Of a DNA stretch of 31,477 nt, positions 543 through 21,070 are shown piece by piece. Position 1 is the first letter of the stretch. The number at the start of each line of letters is the position of its first letter. This stretch comes from Chloroflexota bacterium. GTDB taxonomy: Bacteria; Chloroflexota; Dehalococcoidia; GIF9; AB-539-J10. The stretch is from contig JAXHSX010000039.1 in NCBI GenBank assembly GCA_034190625.1, positions 1 to 31,477 on the forward strand, in the 5' to 3' direction. The position numbers and the translations under genes are program-made. The notes under the pieces were generated by a model. It was not told the origin of the DNA and made no database searches. It saw only the letters and a program-made list of their open reading frames with translations.

Positions 543-1514
543 CTATAGTACTCCTGCAAACTTCAGCCCAACAGCTACTAAAAGTTGAATCATTGCTATA
601 GGAGCGAGCCATTTTAGACACATAGTTACCATTTGCTCAATTCTAAGTCTGGCAAACAGCGCTTTAATGCAAGCTAAAATGAAGACAATGAGTAAAGTTT
701 TGATAATAAAGGCAACAAATCCTACTATTGAGGCAGGGATTCCCAATAAGTGTACTCCAGGAATATCAAAGCCGCCCAGAAAGAGGACTGATATCAAAGC
801 TGCTCCCGCCACCATTTCTATATTTATCATTATCCTCATCAAGGCTAACCTTCCGCCAGAATACTCTACCAGGGGGCCGTCAACGATTTCTTGTTCTGCT
901 GTGGGAATATCGAAGGGAATACGTTCTAGCTTACCGACAAGGGCGATAATAGCCACGATAAAAGATAGAGGCAACCAGCAAATAAACCAGACATGACTAA
1001 GTTGATATTGAACGATACCTGACAGGCTCCAGACCCCGGCTACTAAAGCAGGGGAAAGTATTGCCAGGAAGAAGGGGACTTCGTATCCAAAAAGCTGGGT
1101 AAGAACTCTAAAGCCACCAATAGTGCCAAAAGGATTCGTGGAGTGCCATCCAGCTAGGAATAGAAGGAGGGCGGGGAGGGTCAGAAGATAGGCTACCACT
1201 ATTATGTCCCCAGTGAAGGGAAAAACCGAGCTGGAAGACCAAATAGGAATATAAATAAACGCAGTGGCTACAGCCGCAATACCAAATATGGGCACCGCAG
1301 TAAACATCTTTCTATCTGCTTCCTTAGGAACCAACCCTTCCTTGGACAGGAGTTTCCAGAAATCAGCTATGGGCTGATAAAGCGGTGGACCTACCCGATT
1401 CTGCAAGCGAGCGTAAACCTTTCTATCAATGAACTCGCAGAATAGAGAATAGAAAAAGACAAATACGAATCCAGGGAAGACTAGTAAATTAACTATGGCG
1501 ATCCCAACGTTCAT
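543..1514 (-). CDS. nuoH: NuoH/MbhM/HycD-family membrane subunit (323 aa)
   Basis: DRKVYARLQNRVGPP and ERIPFDIPTAEQEIVDGPLVEYSG motifs; multiple hydrophobic helices; GGAG RBS 8 nt upstream of ATG. Confidence 0.92.
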   Translation of the reverse strand: MNVGIAIVNLLVFPGFVFVFFYSLFCEFIDRKVYARLQNRVGPPLYQPIADFWKLLSKEGLVPKEADRKMFTAVPIFGIAAVATAFIYIPIWSSSSVFPFTGDIIVVAYLLTLPALLLFLAGWHSTNPFGTIGGFRVLTQLFGYEVPFFLAILSPALVAGVWSLSGIVQYQLSHVWFICWLPLSFIVAIIALVGKLERIPFDIPTAEQEIVDGPLVEYSGGRLALMRIMINIEMVAGAALISVLFLGGFDIPGVHLLGIPASIVGFVAFIIKTLLIVFILACIKALFARLRIEQMVTMCLKWLAPIAMIQLLVAVGLKFAGVL

Positions 1515-1576: not shown

Positions 1577-2221
1577 CTAGGTGAGGGATTCTCCATTTAA
1601 CCATGCTCTTTTATCTGGCCCCCAAAATTTTACAATTTCCTTCGCGATCCATTCTAGTGGAAGATCCGCTTGTGGGCTATATTTCTCCAAATACTCTATA
1701 TATGGGTTGCCATCTAAATCTGTCTGGGGCAGAATCGCATCATGTATTCCGTCAAATTCTACTGTAGGGAGCTTATTCTTCGTACATAGTTCCCTGTCGA
1801 AAGTAGCAGCAGCACTAATCCATTTTCCACTAAGAAAGAACTGGTTATAGCCATGGCGGGGAAAAATGTTTGTGCCCATCTTTTCCATTAGGTGAGCGGG
1901 TATTCTGTGATTTTTAATTTTTGCGAAGGAAAGTCTACTGGGAATTAGTGCAGCTCTGCCTAGTGCTGTCAGAAGCACTGCCTTTTGAACACAGTATCCC
2001 TTCTCTCTTCTGAGTACAGTACTGGCCTTGAAATCCTCGAGAAATACAGACGCCATATAAATATTGTATCGAATTGAATCACGGACGAAATAAAAAAGCT
2101 TGATAACTTTCTCTACCTCGCTCGTACAGTCAAGAGTTAGCTTTTCTGCTAACTCTTGAATCATCTCATGTTCCGAGTCAATAGCTTCTGTAGGTTTCAA
2201 ATAAGACTTAAGATCATCCAT
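1577..2221 (-). CDS. Transglutaminase-like superfamily protein (214 aa)
   Basis: GYCVQKAVLLTALGRAALIP (catalytic Cys motif), RHGYNQF (His), ATFD (Asp); N-terminal YLKPTEAIDSEH segment typical of the family. Confidence 0.85.
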   Translation of the reverse strand: MDDLKSYLKPTEAIDSEHEMIQELAEKLTLDCTSEVEKVIKLFYFVRDSIRYNIYMASVFLEDFKASTVLRREKGYCVQKAVLLTALGRAALIPSRLSFAKIKNHRIPAHLMEKMGTNIFPRHGYNQFFLSGKWISAAATFDRELCTKNKLPTVEFDGIHDAILPQTDLDGNPYIEYLEKYSPQADLPLEWIAKEIVKFWGPDKRAWLNGESLT

Positions 2222-2230
2222 TGTTAAGAG

Positions 2231-2596
2231 CTACCCAACAGGCTGACTTAGCTTATCAGGAGTATATAGCGCCTGCGATTTATCCATTATAGAAATCATA
2301 GCTTCATGGGTCAAGTGAATTGCGTCTCTAGGGCAGTACTCTTCACAAAGCCCACAGAAACAACATTTTCCTAAGTGTATTTGGGGATACTTTTTCCCTT
2401 CATCGACTTCTACAAGCTCGATAGCCTTGTTGGGGCAAGCCAAAGAACATACAGGGCAACCTGTGCATTTCTCCAAGTCTAATAATTGTCTCCCTCTATA
2501 GCCATCTACTGGAGGCAGACTCTGATAGGGAAATTGCAAGGTCATGGGTTTTTTGAACAGATTCCTCATAATAGCAGCAGGTCTAAATATGCTCAT
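2231..2596 (-). CDS. NuoI/MbhN/MbxN-like 2x[4Fe-4S] subunit, module 2 (121 aa)
   Basis: KPMTLQFPY, YRGR, CTGCPVCSLACP and CCFCGLCEEYCP motifs. Confidence 0.9.
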   Translation of the reverse strand: MSIFRPAAIMRNLFKKPMTLQFPYQSLPPVDGYRGRQLLDLEKCTGCPVCSLACPNKAIELVEVDEGKKYPQIHLGKCCFCGLCEEYCPRDAIHLTHEAMISIMDKSQALYTPDKLSQPVG

Positions 2597-2602
2597 TTTA
2601 AC

Positions 2603-3742
2603 TCACCTATCCATATCAGCAGGGCAAGAATCCAAACTCCAGTATATCGCAGGAATGTCTGCTATATATGCTCCCTTGGCCAAATAAGGAAACGCAGCTA
2701 AGTTCTGAGAGAAACTGGGAGCCCTAACTTTTACTCTATAGGGTCTCTCGCTTCCATCGCTTACCATGTGGTAGCAAAATTCACCTCTAGCTGCCTCACA
2801 GCAGAAATAGGCTTCCCCTTTAGCAACTTTTTTAGTTAGACCCCATTTTACCCTAAAATCTCCCTCTGGTATCCTTTCCAGTAATTGCCTGATTATAGAG
2901 ATGCTTTCAATTATTTCCCCTCTTCTACACAAAGCCCGGGAGTAGGCATCTCCTTTTTCAAGAGATACAACTTTGAAATTCACGTAGGGGTAAGCGTCAT
3001 AAGGCTCGTCTTTCCTTACATCGGCTACCACGCCGGATGCTCTCAGATTAGGGCCAGTGATCCCCATCGCTATAGCATCATCAGGTCTAAGGATGCCCAC
3101 ATTTTCCAGCCGCATGACAAATGTAGTATTGTAGAAAACGAGATTATCATAGAGTTTCACTTGATTTTCTGTATAATCAAGCGCCTTCAGGGCTTCTTCC
3201 TTGAACCCTTGAGGTAAATCTCTTCTAACACCACCAGGTATGAAATAGCAAGGATATATTCTGCCCCCGGTTGCTAGCTCATTTAGGCGTATGATCTTTT
3301 CTCTATCCCCCCAAGCGATTCTAGTACCGCTATCAAGACCTAGAGCCATGCACATTATCCCGAGCCATGTTATATGGCTTTGTATTCTCCCCAGCTCTGC
3401 CATTATAGTCCGGATGAATTTACCTCTTTGAGGTGCCTCGATACCGGCGGCTATTTCGACAACATTCGCATATCCCATCTCGCAGGAGAAAGGGTCCAGG
3501 ACATTTATCCTATCAACCAACATAGAATTCTGGGCATGGTTTCTATACTCCATAAGCCTTTCAAAACCTCTATGGAGATACCCTGGATGGAAGGTTAGAT
3601 CAACCACTTCCTCGCCGTCGCATTTTAATGAAACATGCACATGGCCTGAGGCTGGGTGCTGAGGACCAAATGGAATGGTAGTGAAGCTTATTTCCCTTTC
3701 CTCTAATTCACTTTTAGCCAAAATACCCTTTGTCCTCTCCAT
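2603..3742 (-). CDS. NuoD/MbxL(MbsL)-like large subunit without the NiFe-binding CxxC motifs, module 2 (about 379 aa)
   Basis: GPQHP, GYLHRGFE, GGVRRD, EAARGE and C-terminal DSCPADMDR. The L1 position reads DRINVLD and there is no C-terminal extension. Start trimmed from the ORF track to ATG 3742; TTG at 3721 is an alternative. Confidence 0.88.
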   Translation of the reverse strand: MERTKGILAKSELEEREISFTTIPFGPQHPASGHVHVSLKCDGEEVVDLTFHPGYLHRGFERLMEYRNHAQNSMLVDRINVLDPFSCEMGYANVVEIAAGIEAPQRGKFIRTIMAELGRIQSHITWLGIMCMALGLDSGTRIAWGDREKIIRLNELATGGRIYPCYFIPGGVRRDLPQGFKEEALKALDYTENQVKLYDNLVFYNTTFVMRLENVGILRPDDAIAMGITGPNLRASGVVADVRKDEPYDAYPYVNFKVVSLEKGDAYSRALCRRGEIIESISIIRQLLERIPEGDFRVKWGLTKKVAKGEAYFCCEAARGEFCYHMVSDGSERPYRVKVRAPSFSQNLAAFPYLAKGAYIADIPAIYWSLDSCPADMDR

Positions 3743-4200: not shown

Positions 4201-4650
4201 TTAATGACCTTCAAATCCGCCTTTTATAGCATTCATAGCCATAACTATTCCGTGACCAATATTCTCAGGTTTAGGAGGGCAACCAAGAATCCACATATCC
4301 ACGGGTATGTAGTCATCTATCCGCTTTACAGTAGCATAGGAATCCCAGTACATCCCGCCTGTCATAGGGCAGCTTCCTAAGGCTAAAACATATTTGGGCG
4401 AAGCCATTTGGTCATAGATCATCTTTATACGCTTAACAGCCTTCTTGGTTACATATCCTGCTACGATAAGGACATCAGCATGCCTAGGAGTTGGTACAGC
4501 TAATATTCCAAATCTTTCCATGTCATAGCCAGATCCCACCCAGGGAAGCAATTCCATAAATCCACAAGCGGAGAAGTAATTGATAGCCCATAAGGAATAG
4601 GTGCGCGCTTCAGCTGTGGATTTTATCGCTCGCGGAGTTAAACTCTTCAT
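4201..4650 (-). CDS. NuoB/MbxJ-like Fe-S subunit with only three cluster Cys, module 2 (149 aa)
   Basis: FSACGFME, TPRHADVL, ALGSCPMTGG, GCPPKPE; GGAGG RBS. Confidence 0.88.
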   Translation of the reverse strand: MKSLTPRAIKSTAEARTYSLWAINYFSACGFMELLPWVGSGYDMERFGILAVPTPRHADVLIVAGYVTKKAVKRIKMIYDQMASPKYVLALGSCPMTGGMYWDSYATVKRIDDYIPVDMWILGCPPKPENIGHGIVMAMNAIKGGFEGH

Positions 4651-4705: not shown

Positions 4706-5239
4706 TCAAGATCGGTATCCTTGAGTCATGGCCTCCAATGAATTGCCAAGCACTTCCTTAAATAAAAGTACCAGTTCATCAAGGGAACATTCGACTTCAC
4801 TTGATATTGTAGTGCCGAAAGAGAGCATCTTCGGCTGAATACCTAAAACAATCATTTCTGAGCCGAGTTCTTTTTTAAGGTAATTGATTAACAAGTATAG
4901 AGGGAGGGAATGAGTAGATGGCATTGTCTCCTCTATTTCGTGGTCTTTAATTAGCTTGATCGTGCCGGCTTTTCCTCCTATTTCTGCAGCATCTATAAGC
5001 AATATATGGGAAGGAGATAGCCTGCGTAGCAATCCAGTGAAGTTCTCTGGAGCGTTTCCTGTAGCCAAAACTTCAACGTTCGGTATTTCTGCCAAAGCCT
5101 CTTTGAGCTTCTTCGCTGCCGATAGTCCCAGGGCATCATCGCCACCTAATTCGTTGCCAACGCCCAAAACGACAATTCGTCTCCAGCCACTTAAGGCTTC
5201 CTCAATCCCATTTTTCAAGTTACTTTGAGTAATTACCAT
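4706..5239 (-). CDS. hycI: HycI-type hydrogenase maturation endopeptidase (177 aa)
   Basis: GVGNELGGDDALG, PENFTG, LIDAA, STHSLPL; start overlaps the upstream stop (ATGGTAA). Confidence 0.9.
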   Translation of the reverse strand: MVITQSNLKNGIEEALSGWRRIVVLGVGNELGGDDALGLSAAKKLKEALAEIPNVEVLATGNAPENFTGLLRRLSPSHILLIDAAEIGGKAGTIKLIKDHEIEETMPSTHSLPLYLLINYLKKELGSEMIVLGIQPKMLSFGTTISSEVECSLDELVLLFKEVLGNSLEAMTQGYRS

Positions 5240-5592
5240 TGTTTTGATATTAATGATTCCTTGTCATAGCTGGCAAGCTCAAATTCCTCTGAAAGAGTAA
5301 TTGCCCCGAAGGGACAACTTTCAGCACACTGCCCACAAAATGCGCACCTGTAGAGGAGAAAAACAGGCCGGCTTTCCTCTTCTCCTACCTGCTCCATAAT
5401 TATCGCCTTAGCAGGACAGTCCGTAGCACATAATCCCTTGCACTTTAGTGAGCACTTCTCTGGATCGTATATAGGTCTGCCACGAAAATTCTTGGGAATA
5501 TCCAGTCTCTCGAAAGGATAGAGCACTGTAGCTCTCTTTTTAAACAGATACCTGCTAATCTCGGGGAACATAGCGCCGATTTTCGACATCAC
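5233..5592 (-). CDS. NuoI/MbhN-like 2x[4Fe-4S] subunit, module 1 (119 aa)
   Basis: ATVLYPFE, FRGRP, CSLKCKGLCATDCP, CAFCGQCAESCP; GTGA overlap with the large-subunit stop. Confidence 0.9.
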   Translation of the reverse strand: MMSKIGAMFPEISRYLFKKRATVLYPFERLDIPKNFRGRPIYDPEKCSLKCKGLCATDCPAKAIIMEQVGEEESRPVFLLYRCAFCGQCAESCPFGAITLSEEFELASYDKESLISKQW

Positions 5593-6809
5593 ACTCTCCT
5601 AGCCTCTCCCTTCAATGGAGAGGGAGATTGGTACCTATCAGAGTACCATTTCATGCTGTATTTCCTTAGCTCTTCCCAGCTTATTGCTTGTTTTTCTTTT
5701 CTATTTCTATTCTCACTGTCAAGAATCATGATCCTATCCATACAGGCCATGCATGGATCGATTGCTGCAAATACGATAGGAATATCAGCAATATATCCGC
5801 CCTTGAGGCAATGAAGCACTGAGGTGATATTTGCCAGAGTAGGCGTCCTAACCTTGAGCCTTTCTGGATGATCAGTACCATTACTCCTGATATAGTGAAG
5901 CAATTCTCCTCTAGGGGCTTCAGTCTTGCTTACTACCTCGCCCGCGGGTACCTTGCGCGGTGCTTTGGTTCTGAATTCCCCCTCGGGCAACTCTTCAATT
6001 ATTTGGCGGCACATCTTGCAACTCTCAATTACTTCTAATACTCTGACAACGGTTCTTCCTAAGACATCGCCAAGGTCTGAGGTGACAACCTTGAAATCCA
6101 GATATGGATAGGCAGCGTACGGGTCATCTCTACGAACATCATATTCTACACCAGAGCCTCTGGCGGTAGGACCGCAAGCGCAAAGTTCTATCGCCTTTTC
6201 CTTGGGGAGCAATCCTACTCCTTCGGTTCTGCGCAGGAAAGTGACCTCTGTACTAGCTACCCCAAGATAATATTCAGTTCTTTCCTTGAGTTGCTGAATG
6301 CCCTTTAAGATTTGGGGTTTCATCTCATCAGTTATATTGCGTCTTACCCCGCCGATAGTATTCATGCCATAGTTAACCCTGTTGCCTGAGATAATCTCGA
6401 GTAGATCCATAACTATTTCTCGATCTCTCCAGCTATACATAAACAGAGTATCGAATCCCAGTTCGTGTCCCGCTACTCCGAGCCAAAGGAGATGGCTATG
6501 TATTCTTTCTAATTCGCAGACTAAGGTACGGATATAAAGTCCCCTTTTCGGAACTTCCAAACCGAGTAACTCCTCTACCCCTTGGCAAAAAGTCGTGGAG
6601 TGTATATGAGAGCATATTCCACAGATCCTCGCGGTAAGATAGATATCTTGGATATAATTTCCCAGTTCGCCAGCCTTCTCAATTCCGCGGTGGTTATATC
6701 CCAGACGTACACCTATATCTACTATTGTTTCCCCATCTACAGTGACTGTCAGATTAATGGGTTCTTTCAGTGCCGGATGTTGTGGACCGATAGGAATAGT
6801 GACAGCCAT
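5589..6809 (-). CDS. Group 4 (Mbh/4g-like) [NiFe] hydrogenase large subunit, module 1 (406 aa)
   Basis: IPIGPQHPALKEP, L1 RICGICSHIH, EAPRGE, L2 DPCMACMDR, followed by a cleavable C-terminal extension. Confidence 0.95.
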   Translation of the reverse strand: MAVTIPIGPQHPALKEPINLTVTVDGETIVDIGVRLGYNHRGIEKAGELGNYIQDIYLTARICGICSHIHSTTFCQGVEELLGLEVPKRGLYIRTLVCELERIHSHLLWLGVAGHELGFDTLFMYSWRDREIVMDLLEIISGNRVNYGMNTIGGVRRNITDEMKPQILKGIQQLKERTEYYLGVASTEVTFLRRTEGVGLLPKEKAIELCACGPTARGSGVEYDVRRDDPYAAYPYLDFKVVTSDLGDVLGRTVVRVLEVIESCKMCRQIIEELPEGEFRTKAPRKVPAGEVVSKTEAPRGELLHYIRSNGTDHPERLKVRTPTLANITSVLHCLKGGYIADIPIVFAAIDPCMACMDRIMILDSENRNRKEKQAISWEELRKYSMKWYSDRYQSPSPLKGEARRV

Positions 6810-6810
6810 T

Positions 6811-7275
6811 TCAGCCCTCCTTAACCTCGACCTTGTAATCCTTTCTCAAAGGATAGACCCCTTCCTCCCAATCGTCTGGGAGAATCAATCTCCTAGGATC
6901 GGGGTGGTCTTTCACCTTTAAACCTAGTAGATCCTGTATCTCTCGCTCATAAAGAATGGCGCCAGGCATGACCGGGGTAATAGTATCAAGTACAGGATTT
7001 GTCTTAGGGACAAAAGTGCTTAAGCTGATGGTTACTCCCTGGCAAAAGAAGTGATACAAGACCTCAATATCCTCTCCCACATCGACTGCAGTTATGGTGG
7101 TAATGTGGACCATGCCAAAACTTTGCTTGAGATAATCGATGACTTCCTTAACCTTGGGCAAGGGAATTCGAACAAATATTCTGCGTTCCCGAGGTATCCT
7201 AACTTTGAGGATTTGCTCGCCGAAAGTCTCTTTGAGTTTGTTCTCGACATCACTCGCCACTGACATGAATTTCAT
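6811..7275 (-). CDS. NuoC/MbhK-like subunit, module 1 (154 aa)
   Basis: HITTITAVD, YEREIQDLLG, HPDPRRL, YPLRK. Confidence 0.9.
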   Translation of the reverse strand: MKFMSVASDVENKLKETFGEQILKVRIPRERRIFVRIPLPKVKEVIDYLKQSFGMVHITTITAVDVGEDIEVLYHFFCQGVTISLSTFVPKTNPVLDTITPVMPGAILYEREIQDLLGLKVKDHPDPRRLILPDDWEEGVYPLRKDYKVEVKEG

Positions 7276-7735
7276 TTTTCCTTTTCAGTTCTTCCAAAAG
7301 TTGGTTATAACTGGGATCAAGATCTCCCAGAAGCTTTACTACCCCATGGATGATGGCATCGGGTCGGGGGGGGCAACCAGGTATATATACATTCACCGGG
7401 ATTGCCTTATCTATGCCACCTAGGACGTTATAGCAGCCCCAAAACACATCACCGGAGCAAGCGCAGGAACCAATAGCTATAACGAACTTCGGGTCAGGCA
7501 TCTGCTCGTATATTCTAACAGCTCTATTCTTCATTTGCCTGGTTATCGGGCCGCAGCACAGAAGGACATCAGCATGTCTCGGGGTTCCCTTAAGCAATAT
7601 ACCAAACCTTTCAATATCAAACCTCGGCATAAGGGCAGCAAGGGTTTCAATGTCACAACCATTGCAGCCACCGGTGTTTAGGTGACATACCCATGGTGAT
7701 TTCACTCTGGACCACTTGGTCAAACTTTCAAGCAT
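7250..7735 (-). CDS. Group 4 hydrogenase small subunit (NuoB/MbhJ-like), module 1 (161 aa)
   Basis: GGCNGCDIE (CxxC), TPRHADVL, IGSCACSG, PGCPPRP: four cluster Cys. Confidence 0.93.
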   Translation of the reverse strand: MLESLTKWSRVKSPWVCHLNTGGCNGCDIETLAALMPRFDIERFGILLKGTPRHADVLLCCGPITRQMKNRAVRIYEQMPDPKFVIAIGSCACSGDVFWGCYNVLGGIDKAIPVNVYIPGCPPRPDAIIHGVVKLLGDLDPSYNQLLEELKRKNEIHVSGE

Positions 7736-7778: not shown

Positions 7779-8099
7779 TCAATCAGTGAGCAAAATTACT
7801 ACTGTTATCAAAGCGATGACTAAATAAATAATGCCTATCCAAGCAATCCTACCACTTGGTACAGTGGCAATTACCAGGGCAGCTACGTGCAATATGGTAA
7901 AGAAAAAGGCAAAATGAAAGAAGCGGTAATTATGCTGTACTTTCCCTCCTGGAATATCTTCTCCACAAGCATAAGTGCTTAGCTTTCCTTCCTCCATGCT
8001 TGGTTTCGGCCCCAGGGATTTGCTCAATCTGTAAACCAAGTAACCGATAACTAAGAATATTAGGAAGGCAACTGGCGGATAGAGAAGAAATTGACTCAT
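7779..8099 (-). CDS. nuoA: NuoA-like membrane subunit (106 aa)
   Basis: Three hydrophobic helices; loop GKLSTYACGE matches the NuoA YECG loop. Confidence 0.8.
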   Translation of the reverse strand: MSQFLLYPPVAFLIFLVIGYLVYRLSKSLGPKPSMEEGKLSTYACGEDIPGGKVQHNYRFFHFAFFFTILHVAALVIATVPSGRIAWIGIIYLVIALITVVILLTD

Positions 8100-9572
8100 T
8101 TAGCTTCCTCCTAAACTGGTTATCATGAAGCTTACCACGGGATCAACTATTTTCAAACCCAGCTCGGGATATACGCCAAGTGCTACAGTGAGGATGACCA
8201 TTATAATTATAGGTATATATATAGATGGTGGAATTCCCTTTGCCTCCTTGGCTTTTTCCGAGATATCACTGGAGAAGAGGATCTTATTGATAGCTGGCAA
8301 ATAGTATACGAGAGAGAGCACACTATTTACTATGAGTAGGATCATGGCCACAATGCCCCAACCACCGACGTCGACACCTGCTCTACAGATGAAGAATTTA
8401 CTGATAAAGCCATTGAGCGGAGGCACACCAGCTAGTGCAAACCCAAAGAAGGCAAAGGCAACGCCAATCAATGGCAATTTACGCCCTATTCCCCGCATCT
8501 CCTCCAAATCCCTGGTTCCGATAGAATAAATAATAGCCCCAGCGCATAAAAAGGCTCCACCTTTTATCACAGCATGGTTTAGTATATGTAGAAATCCTCC
8601 GCGGAATCCATATTCGCCACCGGTGGAAAGATACGCGAAAGCTAATCCTACCCCCAATAAGATATATCCCATCTGAGCAATACTGGAATAAGCCAACATT
8701 CGTTTCAGGTCTCGCTGCACTATAGCTATGAAGTTGCCTACGAACATGCTGACGATGCCGAAGATAATTAATACCACTCCAGAATTGACTCCTGGTAATA
8801 CAGCCAGTGCTTTGATCATGGCGATGAATCCCGCTCCGATAATTATCCCTGACAACATGGCGCTTATTCCACTGGGAGCAGCACTATGCGCATCGGGGAG
8901 CCATGTGTGGAGAGGTACTATAGCTGCCTTTACCCCGAAGCCAATAATGATGAGTACAACCGCACCGATTGCCGTTAGAGAATCCATACCAGCAGTTAAA
9001 TTGGCTAAGATAGCGAGGTCTAAACTTCCGGTATACATGAATATCAGCGAGATGCCCATAAGAGCCATAAGGGAACCAGCAACGCTCATAAAGATATATT
9101 TTATCGCTGCTTCTATGGGTTCCCACCTATCTTTCTCGAAAGCAACTAAGACATAAGAAGGGATAGCCATAACCTCGAAGAAAACAAACATGTTAAATAA
9201 ATCACCAGCAAATCCAATTCCCACAATGCCGGCGATCATAATGAGCAAAAGGCTATAATATCTACCTAAACCATCAAAATGTTCCATATAGCTTATAGAG
9301 AAGAGGGATACTAATGCTCCAAGTCCCACCGCTACGAGTCCCAGGAATATAGCTAGACCATTGGCTTCAAGATAGGTTTGAGCTCCCCCGATGGACCATG
9401 TTAGTAACTCTGTTCCAGAACGAAGTGTGAAGATCTGGATGCCCGAGATCACTAAGAAGATAAAAGAAACGACTCCGGTATACTTAGGCTTGGGCAGCAG
9501 GCGAGCAAAAAGATAGCTTACGAGGGCTCCGATAAACAAGGTGATGATAGGTACAAGAGGTGTTACATTCAT
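8100..9572 (-). CDS. Antiporter-like proton-pumping subunit (NuoM/N, MbhH, HyfB family; about 490 aa)
   Basis: FVFFEVM, EAAIKY, KAAIVPLHTWLPDAHSAAPSGISA, KRMLAYSSI, GVPPLNGFISK. Start trimmed to ATG 9572. Confidence 0.9.
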   Translation of the reverse strand: MNVTPLVPIITLFIGALVSYLFARLLPKPKYTGVVSFIFLVISGIQIFTLRSGTELLTWSIGGAQTYLEANGLAIFLGLVAVGLGALVSLFSISYMEHFDGLGRYYSLLLIMIAGIVGIGFAGDLFNMFVFFEVMAIPSYVLVAFEKDRWEPIEAAIKYIFMSVAGSLMALMGISLIFMYTGSLDLAILANLTAGMDSLTAIGAVVLIIIGFGVKAAIVPLHTWLPDAHSAAPSGISAMLSGIIIGAGFIAMIKALAVLPGVNSGVVLIIFGIVSMFVGNFIAIVQRDLKRMLAYSSIAQMGYILLGVGLAFAYLSTGGEYGFRGGFLHILNHAVIKGGAFLCAGAIIYSIGTRDLEEMRGIGRKLPLIGVAFAFFGFALAGVPPLNGFISKFFICRAGVDVGGWGIVAMILLIVNSVLSLVYYLPAINKILFSSDISEKAKEAKGIPPSIYIPIIIMVILTVALGVYPELGLKIVDPVVSFMITSLGGS

Positions 9573-9658
9573 TACTCTTTCGCTCCACTTGAGTTGCTTC
9601 GCTTTAGCCGCAATACCATTACTTTGTTTCCAATCCGTTTTAATTCTTGGTTCTTCAT
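9572..9658 (-). CDS. Putative 28-aa bridging mini-ORF (MKNQELKRIGNKVMVLRLKRSNSSGAKE)
   Basis: The ATG overlaps the nuoL-like stop (ATGA) and its TAA overlaps the next ATG (TAATG). It fills the gap exactly. Confidence 0.3.
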   Translation of the reverse strand: MKNQELKRIGNKVMVLRLKRSNSSGAKE

Positions 9659-11430
9659 ACTGTCCAAACAAGTAGCAACACCAGGAATATGACAAACCCA
9701 ATGACTATTCCTAAGTTGTTATAATTCAAGTCTCCAGTTTGTATTCTCCTGAATTGCTGCCAAAACCTAAAGAGACCTCTAACACATTTATTATAGAAAA
9801 TATCAAACCAATAGGCTTTCATTAGAGGCAAAGTTAAAGCAGAGGGCTTTCTAAATGCATTGATGACAGTTGCCTTCCATTTTATGGTAAGTAGGGCTAT
9901 CAGAATGGCTACGCCAACGGTAATCCAGATAGTGGGACCGGCGAAGGCATGCTGGATGAAGTTCCCTAAAGTAATATGTGCTATGGAATAATGAGGAAGG
10001 GAAGAGGCCATGCTGGCGGTATAAGGTGATATGTAAAGCCAGAATAAAAGAGATGCCGCAGCCAACACTATCAGTGGTACTGTCATCTGCCAGGGCGCCT
10101 CGTGGATCTTCACCTTGCTTCTTCTATCACCCTGGAAAGTGAGCCAGTACATTCGCCAGGAGTAGGCAGCGGTTAAAAATGCCGTTATAGCAAGAAGTGC
10201 GAAAGCCTCATATAACCCTCCCGCGTGTAAATGTGCCAGAATCATGTGTTTAGAGAAGAAACCAGTCAAGACAGGAATTCCTACCAATGAGAGGAGACCG
10301 AGAATAGCGCAAATGTGGGTAATCTTCATGTGCTTGCGCAATCCTCCCATTTCACGCATGTCCTTGGTTCCTGTTACATAAATTATGGCGCCAGCGCAAA
10401 GGAACAAGAGGGCTTTGAATATTCCGTGAGATAAAAGATAGAATTTACTGGCTAGAATTGCGCCTGCTCCGATGGCTGCCATCATGTATCCCAGTTGGCT
10501 GATAGTGGAGTAGGCGAGCACCCGTTTAATATCCCATTCTGTTAAGGCTATAGTGGCTGCCAGGAATGCAGTTATAGTACCAATCCACAGTATCGCTGTA
10601 GACCACCCAGCTAATCCCATAAAGATAGGATAGCTACGAGCGAGCAGATATACTCCAGCATTGACTAAACAAGCAGCATGGATCAGAGAAGTAATCGTCG
10701 TGGGAGCCACCATAGCATCAGGTAACCAAACGTGAAGAGGAAATTGGGCTGACTTGCCCACTGCCCCTGCGATAAATCCGGCACCCGCTAGTCCAAGAAG
10801 GACAGGAGAGACGGTACTCGCGACGTTCATTATCTCGAAGACGTTGAGGCTTCCTGTAGCGTGCCATAGGATCAATATTCCAGCTAAGAATCCAATATCC
10901 CCTATCCTTGTTACGATAAACGCTTTGGTTCCCGCAGGTATCGGTTCGGGATCGTGGTAGTAGTAACCAATCAAAGCATAAGAGCAAAAACCAATGATCT
11001 CCCAGAAGATGTACATAACCAAAAGGTTACTGGTTAAAGCCAGACCAATCATGCCGCCGATGAAGAACAAGGTCTGCCAGTAGTATCGTGAAAGAGAATA
11101 CTCATGCTCAGCGTGCTTCATATAGCGTATGGAGTATAATAGAGCCAACGCTCCAATACACCCGGCAATTATGGCGACAAAGACACTTAAAGAGTCAAGA
11201 CAAATCCCTAGGCTGATATTTGCTCCCGGTATCCACAGAAAGTCATTGACGCTACCTTCTGTAATAGAAGGAATGAGTGATAGAGTTAAACCAGCGGTGA
11301 TAAATCCCAGAGTAATGGCATATATAGTTCTCGCTTTGGGGCTTATCTTCTCGACAACGTAACAAAAAGGCCCGCCTATTATCGGTATGACTACAGCCAG
11401 TATAGCGATTAGTGTGCTGCTTTCCATCAT
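9655..11430 (-). CDS. nuoL: NuoL-like antiporter subunit (591 aa)
   Basis: FWEIIGFCSYALIGY, TRIGD, GKSAQFPLHVWLPDAM, IKRVLAYSTISQLG, HGIFKALLFL, GFFSK, C-terminal QTG. Confidence 0.92.
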   Translation of the reverse strand: MMESSTLIAILAVVIPIIGGPFCYVVEKISPKARTIYAITLGFITAGLTLSLIPSITEGSVNDFLWIPGANISLGICLDSLSVFVAIIAGCIGALALLYSIRYMKHAEHEYSLSRYYWQTLFFIGGMIGLALTSNLLVMYIFWEIIGFCSYALIGYYYHDPEPIPAGTKAFIVTRIGDIGFLAGILILWHATGSLNVFEIMNVASTVSPVLLGLAGAGFIAGAVGKSAQFPLHVWLPDAMVAPTTITSLIHAACLVNAGVYLLARSYPIFMGLAGWSTAILWIGTITAFLAATIALTEWDIKRVLAYSTISQLGYMMAAIGAGAILASKFYLLSHGIFKALLFLCAGAIIYVTGTKDMREMGGLRKHMKITHICAILGLLSLVGIPVLTGFFSKHMILAHLHAGGLYEAFALLAITAFLTAAYSWRMYWLTFQGDRRSKVKIHEAPWQMTVPLIVLAAASLLFWLYISPYTASMASSLPHYSIAHITLGNFIQHAFAGPTIWITVGVAILIALLTIKWKATVINAFRKPSALTLPLMKAYWFDIFYNKCVRGLFRFWQQFRRIQTGDLNYNNLGIVIGFVIFLVLLLVWTV

Positions 11431-11736
11431 TTATCCGCGAAGTTTCTTGAGGTCATCAATGTCAAGAGTTCCTGTATGTCGGTAAGACCTTACTATCAAA
11501 GCCATGGCAACAGCGGCAGTAATTGCTTCAATGACTATGATGGTTATCACGATAGCCTGGGCGATTTGCTCGTTGCCCTGGAAAAAACCGGCGAGAATAA
11601 AGCTCAAGGTAACTCCTTTGGCAATTACCTCAATGCCGATGAGTAACTGAACTATGTTCTTTCTGGCTATCAGACAATAAATCCCAATGCCGATAAGTAT
11701 GACAATGGCCAGCATGTAAAGTTGCCACAAGTTCAT
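11431..11736 (-). CDS. nuoK: NuoK/MnhC-like subunit (101 aa)
   Basis: Three helices with GIE and IEA conserved Glu; ends TLDIDDLKKLRG; ATGA coupled to the upstream gene. Confidence 0.9.
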   Translation of the reverse strand: MNLWQLYMLAIVILIGIGIYCLIARKNIVQLLIGIEVIAKGVTLSFILAGFFQGNEQIAQAIVITIIVIEAITAAVAMALIVRSYRHTGTLDIDDLKKLRG

Positions 11737-11960
11737 CGCTGTATCCTTTCCTTGACTAGTGTGAGAATGCCGAGGGTTCCTGATAAAATGATTAACAATT
11801 GTAGGAAAACATCAAGCGAGCGAAATTCCCAGAGTGCTTGGCTGAATGACTTAGCAACAGTGAGGCTAATATCAGGCTGGGGTGGAGGAATAAGTAGTGC
11901 AATAGAAAAGCCGATGAAAACCAAGGTTGCTATTATACCTATTATCTCTTTTGTATTCAT
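11733..11960 (-). CDS. Small membrane subunit, MbhE/MnhB N-terminal-like (NuoJ C-half equivalent; 75 aa)
   Basis: Two hydrophobic helices; WEFRSLDVFLQ resembles the xxRxxDTxxE motif. Confidence 0.65.
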   Translation of the reverse strand: MNTKEIIGIIATLVFIGFSIALLIPPPQPDISLTVAKSFSQALWEFRSLDVFLQLLIILSGTLGILTLVKERIQR

Positions 11961-11961
11961 T

Positions 11962-12228
11962 TTACTTTCTTTTGGTTAAGCTGATGACAGAGACAAATAA
12001 AGCTGTAATCAATCCGGCGCAGATAGAAAGTTCAAATACTCCAGCGTAGGGAGAGTCAAGCTTGAAAAATATTATTGCTATCATTACGCTCAACACTGCC
12101 AGTGAAATGGCAGAAAAAAGCATTTCTTTGAAGCGTACTGCCAAAACAGCCGAGGCAATAGCGGCAATAATTAAAACGATACTGATAGCGTCAATTGGCA
12201 CTAGCTTTGCCTCCAAAGGTGCTTCCAT
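11962..12228 (-). CDS. DUF4040/MbhD-like small membrane subunit (NuoJ N-half equivalent; 88 aa)
   Basis: Three helices; LDSPYAGVFELSICAG resembles the APxxAxxExxVGAG motif. Confidence 0.7.
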   Translation of the reverse strand: MEAPLEAKLVPIDAISIVLIIAAIASAVLAVRFKEMLFSAISLAVLSVMIAIIFFKLDSPYAGVFELSICAGLITALFVSVISLTKRK

Positions 12229-12972: not shown

Positions 12973-13431
12973 TTAACCTCGAATGGTTTCTTCCATGACC
13001 ATCCTAACCGCTTCAGGAATAACTCGCTCTACGTCGGGTGTGCATTTCTCACTAAACTTAGTAACGTCTTTTACTTCTATAGCGAATATGGTGATCTTTC
13101 GGGGCATTGGTAAGTTAAGTAGCTTGCCTAATTCTAGAGCAGTGACTAAGTTTATTTGATGGGGTGATGAAGGATGTTTAGCAAAGGAGAAATCTTGCGG
13201 TTCCATACAATATATCTGGCCTACTTTTCCTTCCTTAGTTTGGATGGCATCAATAATAATAACTTCGTCATAGCCTACGACATAATCTAAAAAGCTGAGG
13301 CCAGCTAAACTCGACTCAGCTACAGTAACTTGGGGGTTACTAAAGGTCTTGCTTATTTCTTGTACTACCCTAATACCTACAGCGTCGTCACAAAGAATGG
13401 GATTTCCCAGTCCTAGAATCAATGTTTTCAT
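12973..13431 (-). CDS. HyaD/HupD-type hydrogenase maturation protease (152 aa)
   Basis: LGLGNPILCDDAVG, IIIDAI, SPHQINL. Confidence 0.92.
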   Translation of the reverse strand: MKTLILGLGNPILCDDAVGIRVVQEISKTFSNPQVTVAESSLAGLSFLDYVVGYDEVIIIDAIQTKEGKVGQIYCMEPQDFSFAKHPSSPHQINLVTALELGKLLNLPMPRKITIFAIEVKDVTKFSEKCTPDVERVIPEAVRMVMEETIRG

Positions 13432-13467
13432 TTCGCTTCATGAAACATTAGTTGATTCGCCCTGTAA

Positions 13468-13695
13468 TTATGAGTGTAGCGAAAGATCGCATTGTTTAGG
13501 TAATGTAATAGCCCTAAACTTGAAATTCTTGCCTCTTGACTTTCCGCCAAGATCAAGCAATTGAGCCAAGGTTTTAGCCTCTCTCAAGCCTCGTGGTGGT
13601 TGGGTACAGCCATCGCAGCCTGTGATTAGAATGGAATTGTAAGGGGACAGGAAATCGAAAATTTCATCTAAAGGTTTTTGACTTGTTATTATCAC
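13468..13695 (-). pseudogene. metV: Truncated metV copy (75 aa; 5' third only)
   Basis: Near-identical to the first ~70 aa of the 20410..21057 product, then diverges after KQCD and stops. The C-terminal Fe-S/Zn domain is missing. Confidence 0.85.
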
Positions 13696-13708
13696 TGCCT
13701 AGTCTCCT
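13486..13708. repeat. Direct repeat copy A (223 bp)
   Basis: Aligns ungapped to 20848..21070 with 10 mismatches by manual count. Confidence 0.95.
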
Positions 13709-20409: not shown

Positions 20410-21057
20410 TCATTCTTTGACTATTCCGGGTCTAGCCACCTGCGCAAAATTCCTGGGAGGCTGAATTTCCTCTAAGACGGACAATCTGCCTAGTTTCTCC
20501 AGGCGTTTAATAATCAGATCCCAGGCACAGTCTTTTTCAGGATCGATCTCGCACTTACCGTATTGTGAGCCACCACAGGGGCCGTTAAGCAGAGATTTGG
20601 CGCATCTGGCAATAGGGCAAATACCGCCGGTTAAAGCTAACATACAATCTCCGCAGGCAGCGCATCTTTCCTCGAGAGTGCTATCCTCTCTGATCTCCGA
20701 CCCGATAAAGAGAGTGTTTTGAGCGGGAAAGGCAGGTAGATCGGGTAGGACTTGAGATATAGTTTGTACGCCCAGGCCACAAGCTAACGATAAGATAGCT
20801 TCCATACCCTCTGTTTGAGGCTGAAGTGAAGTAATGGTCAGGTAAGAATCGCATTGTTTAGGCAATGTAATAGCCCTAAACTTGAAATTCTTGCCTCTTA
20901 ACTTTCCGCCAAGATCAAGCAATTGAGCCAAGGTTTTAGCCTCCCTCAAGCCTCGTGGTGGCTGGGTACAGCCATCGCAGCCTGCGATTATGATGGAATT
21001 GTAAGGGGATAGGAAATCCAAAATTTCATCTAAAGGTTTTTGACTTGTTATTATCAC
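20410..21057 (-). CDS. metV: MetV-like methylenetetrahydrofolate reductase Fe-S/Zn subunit (215 aa)
   Basis: GCDGC, KQCD, LACGLGVQ, CAACGDCML..GGICPIARCAKSLLNGPCGG..GKCE..DCAW. Confidence 0.88.
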   Translation of the reverse strand: MIITSQKPLDEILDFLSPYNSIIIAGCDGCTQPPRGLREAKTLAQLLDLGGKLRGKNFKFRAITLPKQCDSYLTITSLQPQTEGMEAILSLACGLGVQTISQVLPDLPAFPAQNTLFIGSEIREDSTLEERCAACGDCMLALTGGICPIARCAKSLLNGPCGGSQYGKCEIDPEKDCAWDLIIKRLEKLGRLSVLEEIQPPRNFAQVARPGIVKE

Positions 21058-21070
21058 TGCCTGGTCTCCT
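20848..21070. repeat. Direct repeat copy B (223 bp)
   Basis: About 95% identical to 13486..13708; covers the RBS and 5' end of metV. Confidence 0.95.

What the first reader, a model, noticed from the sequence alone, without database searches (positions are those of the whole stretch)
2603..3742. Second large subunit is Mbs/Mbx-like but with a rearranged cysteine set
Seen: L1 reads DRINVLDPFSCE (no CxxC, with a Cys further along). L2 reads SLDSCPADMDR (one Cys, no extension). The N-terminal loop is GPQHPASGH rather than the NuoD GPQHPSxHG, and Val sits where NuoD has its quinone-binding Tyr. Established, recalled from memory: MbsL keeps one Cys in each motif (RIC.. and DxCP.D.DR), while NuoD has the His/Tyr quinone pair. 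Inference: this subunit is neither a hydrogenase nor a standard quinone reductase, and has a new substrate pocket related to the sulfane-sulfur reductases.
Basis: partly seen in the sequence, partly recalled or inferred. Interest (0 to 1): 0.7.

Follow-up and report, generated by a model that had tools for sequence, protein, structure and literature searches.

The report
MBS-type subunit with a swapped cysteine
The gene encodes the pocket-forming subunit of a sulfur-reductase-like (MBS/Mbx-type) relative of respiratory complex I in a marine-sediment bacterium; one of the family's two relic cysteines has changed places with an asparagine seven residues away, and the same swap arose a second time in a related lineage.

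Summary
On the minus strand, 2603-3742 encodes a 379-aa NuoD/MbsL homologue. It reads GPQHPASGH, DRINVLDPFSCE and SLDSCPADMDR.

By sequence and tree it belongs with P. furiosus MbsL, not with NuoD/FpoD or the hydrogenases. N80 aligns with MbsL C85, C373 with C385, and V81 with Nqo4 Y87. Its partner B2 (4201-4650) has only the three cysteines that hold the open-iron proximal cluster in MbsJ.

The broader family is large and already described. Its C80/C373 pair is nearly universal: only 4 of 81 species-level sequences lack C80.

The new result concerns this lineage. Cys80 and Asn87 have swapped places, and residue 87 sits in the histidine column of the hydrogenase L1 motif. Three other changes come with the swap: I81V, G341A and P372S. 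The same set of changes arose independently in a second lineage (AU p=1.5e-4; overlap of derived sites p~9e-5). The gene is under strong purifying selection (dN/dS 0.07).

"New substrate pocket" is not shown. In MBS the two cysteines are dispensable in vitro. I could not measure distances in the model.

The host is bacterial, probably Dehalococcoidia. Apart from first-reader notes on this same window, the scan holds no earlier finding of this feature on other DNA. Verdict: new variant of a known kind, moderate interest.

The parts
2603..3742 (-). D2: MbsL/NuoD-like large subunit, 379 aa. This is the finding.
   Evidence: PF00346 at 255 bits. Best solved relative is 6u8y_L at 282 bits. Tree placement.
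3641..3667 (-). Beta1-beta2 loop GPQHPASGH (residues 26-34). It is one residue shorter than in NuoD and in hydrogenases, and it carries His34.
3479..3514 (-). L1-equivalent DRINVLDPFSCE (residues 77-88). N80 is in the MbsL C85 column, V81 in the Nqo4 Y87 column, D83 in the second Ni-ligand column, and C87 in the L1 His(+7) column.
2606..2638 (-). L2-equivalent SLDSCPADMDR (residues 369-379). C373 corresponds to MbsL C385. S372 is one of the changes that arose in parallel in the second lineage. D376 is in the fourth Ni-ligand column.
2720..2722 (-). A341 (G341A), a substitution seen in both Cys-swap lineages. It lies in the conserved R-x-P-S-F segment.
4201..4650 (-). B2: MbsJ/NuoB-like small subunit with only three cysteines (C29, C94, C124). 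The first motif is four residues shorter than in the hydrogenase paralogue B1.
   Evidence: Best solved relative is 6u8y_J at 145 bits. Family alignment. Cluster ligands of MbsJ from PMC7684303.
3714..4214 (-). C2: NuoC/MbsK-like subunit.
   Evidence: PF00329. It is 78% identical to the orthologue in L009.
2231..2596 (-). I2: NuoI/MbsN-like subunit with two CxxCxxCxxxCP motifs, predicted to bind 2x[4Fe-4S].
   Evidence: Fer4 families. Cys positions 44, 47, 50, 54, 78/79, 81, 84, 88.
543..1514 (-). NuoH/MbsM-like membrane anchor. It is the only copy found in the 71%-complete assembly.
   Evidence: PF00146. It is 86% identical to the anchor of the single-head operon in L009.
7779..12228 (-). Membrane arm shared with the ancestral operon: NuoJ/MbhD-like, NuoK-like, NuoL-like (591 aa), NuoN-like (533 aa) and NuoA-like genes.
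   Evidence: Pfam. Orthologous order J K L N A B C D I H in relatives.
4706..7735 (-). Inserted [NiFe] hydrogenase cassette B1-C1-D1-I1-HycI, lying between NuoA and B2. It is context for the finding, not part of D2.
   Evidence: Independent contigs bridge its junctions.

Best explanation
D2 is the pocket-forming large subunit of an MBS/Mbx-type head (B2-C2-D2-I2). The head sits on a complex-I-like membrane arm in a marine-sediment bacterium, probably a member of the Dehalococcoidia.

Inferred mechanism, by homology to P. furiosus MBS:
- Reduced ferredoxin delivers electrons through the two clusters of I2 to the proximal [4Fe-4S] cluster of B2.
- That cluster is held by only three cysteines, so one iron is open.
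- A hydrophobic acceptor is reduced at that iron, in the chamber formed by D2, B2 and NuoH. Sulfane sulfur (polysulfide or an organic persulfide/trisulfide) is the best guess. A quinone is unlikely.
- The two antiporter-like subunits conserve the energy.

Shown here:
- D2 cannot bind Ni-Fe and lacks the quinone-binding Tyr/His pair.
- The family's two relic cysteines lie next to that chamber. In this lineage the first one (Cys80) changed places with Asn87.
- I81V, G341A and P372S accompany the swap.
- The same set of changes evolved independently in a second lineage.
- The gene stays under strong purifying selection.

I read the swap as a compensated repositioning that keeps two thiols in the relic Ni-Fe pocket. 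It is neither decay nor a new catalytic centre. What the thiol pair does is unknown. Candidates are persulfide handling, a redox switch or a structural role.
For: Family placement:
- the best solved relative is MbsL (6u8y_L), 282 bits in one stretch over residues 23-379. N80 aligns with C85, C373 with C385 and V81 with Nqo4 Y87, and H38 falls in a gap.
- B2 best matches MbsJ. It has only C29, C94 and C124, which correspond to C28, C93 and C123 of MbsJ.
- (PMC7684303): those three residues bind the proximal cluster, and the open iron is the proposed catalyst.
- D2 lies in a 98%-supported clade with MbsL-like representatives. One of them, P0123, scores 347 bits to 6u8y_L. All named NuoD sequences fall in a separate 97%-supported clade that carries Tyr87.
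- the NuoD (TIGR01962) and FpoD models score below their cut-offs.

The swap:
- C80 and C373 are nearly universal. Only 4 of 81 species-level sequences lack C80.
- the swap arose in two separate lineages. Monophyly is rejected (AU p=1.5e-4).
- the derived sites of the two lineages (23 and 15 of 379) overlap at 6 positions against about 0.9 expected (p~9e-5). The changes at 81, 87, 341 and 372 are identical in both lineages, and residue 80 also changed in both (to Asn or Asp).
- each half of the swap needs two nucleotide changes.

Selection and context:
- dN/dS between the window and L114 is 0.07.
- L114 carries the same N/C/C state but has NuoA directly upstream of B2. The swap therefore does not depend on the hydrogenase insertion.
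- no MqnA/D gene was found in the 71%-complete genome. The literature states that subphylum II Chloroflexi make no quinones.
Against: - In P. furiosus the C85A/C385A enzyme reduces dimethyl trisulfide like wild type. The cysteines may be functionally minor and the swap close to neutral.
- There are only two independent swap events, so the paired sign test cannot reach significance. The two groups were named after the tree had been seen.
- I could not read coordinates from the AlphaFold model. The closeness of C87 to C373 rests on the motif column and on recalled hydrogenase structures.
- The fold search does not separate MbsL from complex I subunits: TM is 0.89 to both, and identity is 40% against 39%.
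- The broad NCBIfam NuoD model NF004739 passes its cut-off.
- The membrane arm is complex-I-like. It has a separate NuoA, and no MrpE/G-type genes were found. That differs from MBS.
- The acceptor is untested. His34 sits within two residues of the H38 position.
- The window branch shows 17 unique amino-acid changes against 7 in L114, which may indicate mild relaxation.
Confidence: 0.55

Rival explanations
1. Neutral drift of dispensable relic residues. The two cysteines have no role, so losing Cys80 and gaining Cys87 are unrelated, nearly neutral events.
For: The C85A/C385A MBS subcomplex keeps wild-type activity in vitro. Some family members lack one cysteine without a replacement: P0042/L017 read N-W-C, P0032/L014 read D-A-C, and P0035/51/56 lack the C-terminal Cys.
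Against: Both cysteines are kept in about 95% of species-level sequences across bacteria and archaea. Cys87 is never seen alongside Cys80. The same five-site set recurs in two lineages (p~9e-5). Each half of the swap needs two nucleotide changes. dN/dS is 0.07.
Confidence: 0.2
2. The head does not reduce sulfur. It passes ferredoxin electrons to another acceptor: NAD(P)+ through a GltD-like partner, or a heterodisulfide/Hdr-type partner. The second route has been proposed for Fpo-like complexes of Methanomassiliicoccales.
For: Related operons end with a GltD-like flavoprotein (L003). Mbx-like operons with gltD have been described (PMC4758237). The window carries HdrA-like, MvhD/FlpD and GltD-like genes just upstream.
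Against: No such gene lies inside this operon. The three-cysteine proximal cluster is the feature tied experimentally to sulfane-sulfur reduction.
Confidence: 0.17
3. It is an ordinary 11-subunit Nuo/Fpo-like quinone (or phenazine) reductase, as such operons are usually annotated in marine Dehalococcoidia.
For: NF004739 "NuoD" passes its cut-off. The operon order J K L N A B C D I H is Nuo/Fpo-like. The fold is equally close to the complex I 49-kDa subunits. His34 lies near the H38 position.
Against: Tyr87 is replaced by Val, and H38 falls in a deletion. B2 lacks the tandem Cys-Cys of the N2 cluster. The tree separates D2 from all named NuoD. TIGR01962 and FpoD score below cut-off. No MqnA/D gene was found (71%-complete genome).
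Confidence: 0.05
4. D2 is a head on its way out. The hydrogenase cassette is replacing B2-C2-D2-I2, and the odd cysteine pattern reflects relaxed selection.
For: A relative 86% identical in DNA (L112) has D1-I1-HycI joined directly to the transglutaminase-like gene and NuoH, with no B2-C2-D2-I2 in between. The window branch carries more unique changes than L114, 17 against 7.
Against: dN/dS is 0.07. All invariant family residues are retained. The N/C/C state is shared with L114, which has the ancestral NuoA-B2 junction, and with a second lineage that has single-head operons.
Confidence: 0.03

Closest known systems
[quoted passage not shown]
   Same: It is the best solved relative by sequence (282 bits, 40% identity) and falls in the same clade. 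The beta1-beta2 loop has the same length. Val occupies the Tyr87 column. There is no H38 or E21 counterpart. The C-terminal relic Cys in CPxDxDR is kept. The partner small subunit has the same three cluster cysteines.
   Different: The first relic Cys (C85) is Asn here, and a Cys sits seven residues later, where MbsL has Pro92. His34 stands where MbsL has Asn. The membrane arm has a separate NuoA-like gene, and no MbsA/B/C (Mrp E/F/G-type) genes were found. The host is a mesophilic sediment bacterium, not a hyperthermophilic archaeon.
11-subunit "Nuo without NuoEFG" and Fpo-like complexes of marine Dehalococcoidia, Bathyarchaeia and Methanomassiliicoccales
   Same: The gene order J K L N A B C D I H is the same, the NADH/F420 input module is missing, and ferredoxin is the presumed donor. 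The nearest relatives of D2 are these operons.
   Different: These complexes are usually annotated as quinone or phenazine reductases. Here the head has MBS hallmarks: a three-Cys cluster, no Tyr87 and the relic Cys pair. In addition, this lineage has the Cys80/Asn87 swap.
NuoD / Nqo4 / 49-kDa subunit of respiratory complex I
   Same: The fold is the same (TM 0.89) and identity reaches 38-39% to Nqo4. The Pfam family is the same, PF00346.
   Different: D2 has no H38/Y87 quinone pair. It lacks the roughly 30-residue insertion that splits all NuoD alignments into two stretches. It falls in a separate clade. Its partner lacks the tandem cysteines of cluster N2.
Group 4 membrane-bound [NiFe] hydrogenase large subunits (MbhL; Hfo of Bathy-6), including the paralogue D1 at 5589-6809
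   Same: They share ancestry and fold. The L1 and L2 motif columns can be aligned one to one.
   Different: D2 keeps only one of the four Ni-Fe cysteines. Its new Cys occupies the L1 histidine (+7) column. It has no C-terminal extension for HycI processing.

Membership tests
MBS/Mbx-type sulfane sulfur reductase head | The large subunit is closest to MbsL by sequence and tree | tested here: met
   6u8y_L is the top solved hit at 282 bits. D2 lies in a clade with MbsL-like representatives at 95-98% support.
MBS/Mbx-type sulfane sulfur reductase head | Relic cysteine in the L1 motif (MbsL C85, RIC) | tested here: not met
   N80 (AAT) occupies that column, and a Cys sits at residue 87 instead.
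MBS/Mbx-type sulfane sulfur reductase head | Relic cysteine in the L2 motif (MbsL C385, CPxDxDR) | tested here: met
   C373 in SLDSCPADMDR.
MBS/Mbx-type sulfane sulfur reductase head | No counterparts of Nqo4 H38/Y87 or MbhL E21 | tested here: met
   V81 is in the Y87 column, and the loop is one residue shorter so H38 falls in a gap. Caveat: His34 lies two residues after that position.
MBS/Mbx-type sulfane sulfur reductase head | The small subunit binds the proximal [4Fe-4S] cluster with three cysteines, and its first motif is shortened | tested here: met
   B2 has only C29, C94 and C124, which correspond to MbsJ C28, C93 and C123. Its first motif is 4 residues shorter than in B1. This is a sequence-level test only.
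MBS/Mbx-type sulfane sulfur reductase head | Two antiporter-like pump subunits (MbsH, MbsH') | tested here: met
   There are two PF00361 genes, of 591 and 533 aa.
MBS/Mbx-type sulfane sulfur reductase head | Mrp-type distal module (MbsA/B/C) | tested here: not met
   None is in the operon. No MrpE or MrpG family match was found in the 71%-complete genome. MrpF was not searched.
MBS/Mbx-type sulfane sulfur reductase head | Ferredoxin-dependent reduction of polysulfide or dimethyl trisulfide | not testable with these tools
   This needs a biochemical assay.
Complex I NuoD / FpoD (quinone or phenazine reducing) | His38/Tyr87 head-group ligands | tested here: not met
Complex I NuoD / FpoD (quinone or phenazine reducing) | Passes the curated equivalog models | tested here: inconclusive
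   TIGR01962 scores 320.8 against a cut-off of 459, and FpoD scores 306 against 600, so both fail. The broad NF004739 model scores 387.7 against 360 and passes. The true hydrogenase D1 also scores 343 on that model.
Complex I NuoD / FpoD (quinone or phenazine reducing) | The partner NuoB has tandem Cys-Cys ligands for cluster N2 | tested here: not met
   B2 reads FSACGF with a single Cys.
Complex I NuoD / FpoD (quinone or phenazine reducing) | Falls inside the NuoD/FpoD clade | tested here: not met
   All named NuoD references form a separate clade at 97-98% support. No named FpoD reference was available.
Group 4 [NiFe] hydrogenase large subunit | Four Ni-Fe cysteines in L1 (CxxC) and L2 (CxxC) | tested here: not met
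   The four columns read N, D, C, D.

The most novel reading that the evidence does not exclude
Cys87 and Cys373 form a new redox-active dithiol. It retunes the relic Ni-Fe pocket for a different acceptor, for example an organic persulfide or heterodisulfide handled by thiol-disulfide exchange next to the open-iron cluster. In this organism the retuned head would work alongside the hydrogenase head encoded in the same operon. A single membrane arm could then be driven either by proton reduction or by sulfur-compound reduction.
Probability: 0.1. Interest if true: 0.8.

Novelty: new variant of a known kind. Interest (0 to 1): 0.4.

Why it matters
MbsL's two relic cysteines are conserved, yet they are dispensable for activity in vitro. 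Why they persist is an open question in the evolution of complex I from hydrogenases.

A natural Cys/Asn position swap that recurs with the same accompanying substitutions is evidence that selection keeps two thiols in that pocket. It also supplies ready-made variants for testing what they do.

The work further shows that the "11-subunit Nuo" of a marine Dehalococcoidia-like bacterium carries MBS hallmarks rather than quinone-reductase hallmarks. This bears on how these abundant and reportedly quinone-free sediment bacteria conserve energy.

Tried and rejected
- Distances between residues 80, 87 and 373 in the AlphaFold2 model (pLDDT 88.5, C-terminal residues 375-379 below 50) could not be computed. 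The coordinates are not exposed to scripts.
- The Foldseek search of the PDB did not discriminate MbsL from complex I subunits.
- A literature search for the L1-motif His to Cys hydrogen bond found nothing usable. That point rests on memory.
- No named P. furiosus MbsL or Methanosarcina FpoD sequence could be fetched for the tree. MbsL-like representatives were identified indirectly through the PDB search. NuoD references came from plasmid records.
- I first read the host as Bathyarchaeia, from the source names of homologues. I rejected that after finding three sigma-70 genes and no archaeal L15e or RpoN.
- The paired sign test for co-occurrence of C80 loss and C87 gain is not significant with only two informative pairs.
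- A chimeric assembly of the two-head operon was considered and rejected. Independent Logan contigs bridge the junctions.
- No RNA holder was listed among the sequencing runs, so nothing can be said about expression.
- No parallel substitutions were found in B2, I2, NuoH or NuoA between the two swap lineages. One was found in C2 (D128N), which may be chance.
- Complex prediction was not used, because B2-D2 is a textbook pair.
Full report
**What is there**

The finding lies on the minus strand. The frame 2603-3742 (ATG at 3742, TGA at 2603-2605) encodes a 379-aa protein of Pfam family PF00346.
- GPQHPASGH: residues 26-34, window 3641-3667.
- DRINVLDPFSCE: residues 77-88, window 3479-3514.
- SLDSCPADMDR: residues 369-379, window 2606-2638.

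The gene is the thirteenth in a minus-strand operon running from 12228 down to 543. The order is:
- NuoJ/MbhD-like, NuoK, NuoL (591 aa), NuoN (533 aa), NuoA;
- a complete [NiFe] hydrogenase cassette B1-C1-D1-I1 plus a HycI protease;
- B2-C2-D2-I2;
- a transglutaminase-like gene;
- the only NuoH found in the assembly.

D1 has RICGICS and DPCMACMDR. D2 is the gene of the finding.

**Residue correspondences**

HMMER alignments to solved chains give P. furiosus MbsL (6u8y_L) as the best hit. It scores 282 bits in one continuous stretch over residues 23-379. T. thermophilus Nqo4 follows at 254 bits in two stretches, because NuoD has an insertion of about 30 residues near 300. MbhL scores 165 bits.

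The alignments place the residues as follows:
- N80 opposite MbsL C85.
- C87 opposite MbsL P92.
- C373 opposite MbsL C385.
- V81 opposite Nqo4 Y87.
- Nqo4 H38 in a one-residue gap of D2.

Against the operon's own hydrogenase D1, C87 falls in the column of the conserved L1 histidine, C-x-x-C-x-x-x-H (motif as given in PMC7886697). The four Ni-Fe ligand columns read N, D, C, D in D2. In the wider family they read C, D/E, C, D.

PMC7684303 confirms that MbsL keeps C85 and C385 and lacks counterparts of H38, Y87 and E21.

**The partner subunit**

B2 (4201-4650) best matches MbsJ (6u8y_J, 145 bits). It contains only three cysteines: C29, C94 and C124. They align with MbsJ C28, C93 and C123.

PMC7684303 shows that those three residues bind the proximal [4Fe-4S] cluster. 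The fourth iron is left open, and that paper proposes it as the catalytic site for polysulfide reduction. MbsJ C25, which does not bind the cluster, is Ser in B2.

The first motif of B2 is four residues shorter than in B1. The same single-Cys motif, F[TN][AS]CGF, runs through nearly the whole family. I2 has two CxxCxxCxxxCP motifs.

**Family placement**

A search of 5.8 billion proteins and a scan of species-representative genomes found thousands of relatives.

I built a tree of 168 sequences. It holds 50%-identity representatives, D1, D2 and named NuoD references from plasmid records. I followed it with an 84-row IQ-TREE analysis under LG+C20.
- D2 falls inside a clade with 98% SH-aLRT support whose members read C-[D/E]-C-D and have Val or Ile in the Tyr87 column.
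- That clade contains representatives with RICVxDP and CPPDIDx motifs. One of them, P0123, scores 347 bits to 6u8y_L against 249 bits to Nqo4.
- All named NuoD sequences (Sinorhizobium, Ralstonia, E. coli, Bacillus, Halalkalicoccus) fall in a separate clade with 97% support that carries Tyr87.
- The four-Cys hydrogenases lie outside both clades.

Curated NCBIfam models for NuoD (TIGR01962) and FpoD score below their cut-offs. Only the broad NF004739 model passes, and the true hydrogenase D1 nearly passes it too.

The fold search cannot separate the groups: TM is 0.89 to both, and identity is 40% to MbsL against 38-39% to Nqo4.

**What is unusual**

Among 80 species-representative relatives plus the window, the C80 and C373 columns are almost always Cys. 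Only four sequences lack C80:
- the window, reading N-C-C at residues 80, 87 and 373;
- L011, reading D-C-C;
- L014, reading D-A-C;
- L017, reading N-W-C.

A Cys at residue 87 is seen only where C80 is absent.

On a 74-row tree with the three trait columns masked, the swap sequences fall in two places.
- Lineage A is the window plus P0001. It nests among sequences reading C-N-C at residues 80, 87 and 373, such as P0002-P0005 (97% support).
- Lineage B is P0026, P0058 and P0030. It nests among other C-N-C sequences (99-100% support).

Forcing the two lineages into one clade costs 216 log-likelihood units (AU p=1.5e-4). I named the group after seeing the tree, which weakens that test.

In lineage A the change is literally an exchange, Cys80 to Asn and Asn87 to Cys. 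Each half needs two nucleotide changes.

Each lineage was then compared with its own sisters. Lineage A has 23 derived positions and lineage B has 15, out of 379. They overlap at six positions, where about 0.9 is expected (hypergeometric p~9e-5). Four of the six changes are identical in both lineages: I81V, N87C, G341A and P372S. Position 80 also changed in both, to Asn or Asp.

Three of these sites (80, 81, 87) lie in the L1 motif and one (372) lies in L2. These segments build the Ni-Fe site in hydrogenases. A stricter comparison on species representatives recovers 80, 87 and 341. The partner subunits show almost no parallel change.

**Selection and independence from the hydrogenase insertion**

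L114 is the contig that carries P0001. It is 88.5% identical in DNA and 93% in protein, and it has the same N-C-C state. On it, the C-terminus of NuoA lies directly upstream of B2. This is the ancestral single-head junction also seen in L001/L009, L003, L013, L014 and L115.

The swap is therefore older than, or independent of, the insertion of the hydrogenase cassette.

dN/dS for D2 between the window and L114 is 0.07. For B2 it is 0.06 and for C2 it is 0.12. The window branch has somewhat more unique amino-acid changes, 17 against 7. D2 keeps every invariant residue of a 77-sequence family alignment. This is a maintained gene, not a decaying one.

**Context**

Close relatives of D1 (76-91% identity) are common. 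The B1-C1-D1-I1-HycI cassette occurs in four settings:
- after a FlpD-ferredoxin gene and metV, with two HycI genes and no membrane genes (L107-L109, L111);
- directly after NuoH (L110);
- joined directly to the transglutaminase-like gene and NuoH, with no B2-C2-D2-I2 in between (L112, 86% DNA identity);
- between NuoA and B2, in the window.

In the window, a 223-base 5' remnant of metV (213/223 identical to the full copy) and the second HycI remain where the cassette sits in relatives.

Logan contigs from the probable source run bridge all three junctions at even depth. Contigs from another study bridge the NuoA-B1 and I2-transglutaminase junctions. The two-head arrangement is therefore real DNA.

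**The host**

The genome is 1.25 Mb in 147 contigs and 71% complete. It has three sigma-70 genes, and no archaeal L15e or RpoN was found.

The nearest species representatives are labelled Dehalococcoidales. More distant homologues carry Bathyarchaeota, Hadarchaeota and other names. The host is a bacterium, and the family crosses domains.

The genome has one NuoH, two NuoD-like genes, no MrpE/MrpG and no MqnA/D match. An incomplete genome limits what these absences mean.

The literature already notes 11-subunit Nuo operons without NuoEFG in marine Dehalococcoidia. It also states that subphylum II Chloroflexi make no quinones (PMC5736913).

**Interpretation**

The best-supported reading is an MBS-type, ferredoxin-oxidising head. 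Catalysis would occur at the open iron of the three-Cys cluster in B2. D2 would form the hydrophobic chamber.

That D2 is neither a hydrogenase nor a quinone reductase is shown at the sequence and tree level. The sulfur acceptor is inferred by homology only.

The cysteine rearrangement is real, derived, convergent and selected. It most likely keeps two thiols in the relic pocket.

It is not evidence for a new catalytic centre. In P. furiosus, removing both cysteines leaves activity unchanged in vitro. Their conserved but non-catalytic status is stated as surprising in PMC8165549. Relic cysteines in mbx-like NuoD homologues were described earlier (PMC4758237).

The spatial closeness of residue 87 to residue 373 is an inference. 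It rests on three things:
- the L1 motif column;
- my recollection that the L1 histidine hydrogen-bonds a Ni-bound cysteine in standard hydrogenases, which I could not confirm in the library;
- the exchange-type substitution itself.

I could not measure it, because model coordinates were not readable.

**Verdict**

The family is known. The position swap and its convergent recurrence are, as far as I could find, undescribed. I class this as a new variant of a known kind, of moderate interest.

Noticed in passing
window 4706-7735; loci L107-L112: The hydrogenase cassette B1-C1-D1-I1-HycI is mobile relative to the Mbs-like operon. It occurs alone after FlpD-Fer4 and metV, after NuoH (L110), in place of B2-C2-D2-I2 before the transglutaminase-like gene and NuoH (L112), and between NuoA and B2 (the window). 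This looks like stages of a head replacement or head addition on one membrane arm.
   Followed up: partly
window 12973-13708 and 20848-21070: A 223-base 5' remnant of metV (213/223 identical to the full copy) is followed by a second HycI gene. This is exactly where relatives carry metV-B1-C1-D1-I1-HycI-HycI. It looks like a footprint of the cassette having moved out of this site.
   Followed up: partly
whole genome G000: The host is bacterial. It has three sigma-70 region-2 hits, no L15e or RpoN was found, and the nearest MAGs are labelled Dehalococcoidales. Many 60-70% identical homologues are labelled Bathyarchaeota or Hadarchaeota. That implies cross-domain transfer of the whole operon, or mis-binned records.
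   Followed up: partly
loci L023-L041; proteins P0071-P0092: Hecatellales, Bathyarchaeia and Asgard records carry fused NuoI-NuoB-NuoD-type proteins of 600-664 aa. Their large-subunit part keeps the C-D-C-D relic set, with CPADHDR. Their small-subunit part has the NuoB-like tandem Cys-Cys (TGCCF). This mixes MBS-like and complex-I-like hallmarks.
   Followed up: no
proteins P0029, P0038, P0035, P0051, P0056: In one subclade the C-terminal relic Cys is shifted one residue earlier (SLDCVPADMDR) or lost (SLDSVPADMDR). This is another natural variant of the cysteine pair.
   Followed up: no
loci L038, L040, L047, L054, L060, L063, L065, L086, L013: Many MAGs carry an Mbs-like module (B-C-D-I-H) immediately followed by an Mbh-like hydrogenase module (B-C-D-H-I, with HycI nearby). 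Each module has its own NuoH. Tandem pairing of the two heads is therefore common. Sharing one NuoH, as in the window, is not.
   Followed up: no
window 1577-2221; L112 2209-2841: The transglutaminase-like gene between the head genes and NuoH is 90% identical in L112, where it follows HycI directly. Other relatives have only a 49-aa ORF or a short gap at that place (L001, L115).
   Followed up: partly
window 5589-5625: Contigs of three runs (X1, X2, X4) break away from the window sequence at 5589 and 5625, which is the D1 stop / I1 start region. This suggests strain-level structural variation at the 3' end of D1, the part that encodes the C-terminal extension cut off by the maturation protease.
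   Followed up: no
window 3641-3643 (His34): The subclade nearest the window has His at residue 34 (GPQHPASGH), where the rest of the family and MbsL have Asn. It lies within two residues of the Nqo4 H38 / MbhL E21 position in the beta1-beta2 loop.
   Followed up: no
proteins P0124, P0125, P0137, P0201, P0203, P0229: The sister clade of the Mbs-like group reads S/T/M-D-F/W-E at the four ligand columns. It has no Tyr87 and scores higher to complex I subunits than to MbsL. It may be an Fpo-like type. I did not identify it.
   Followed up: no
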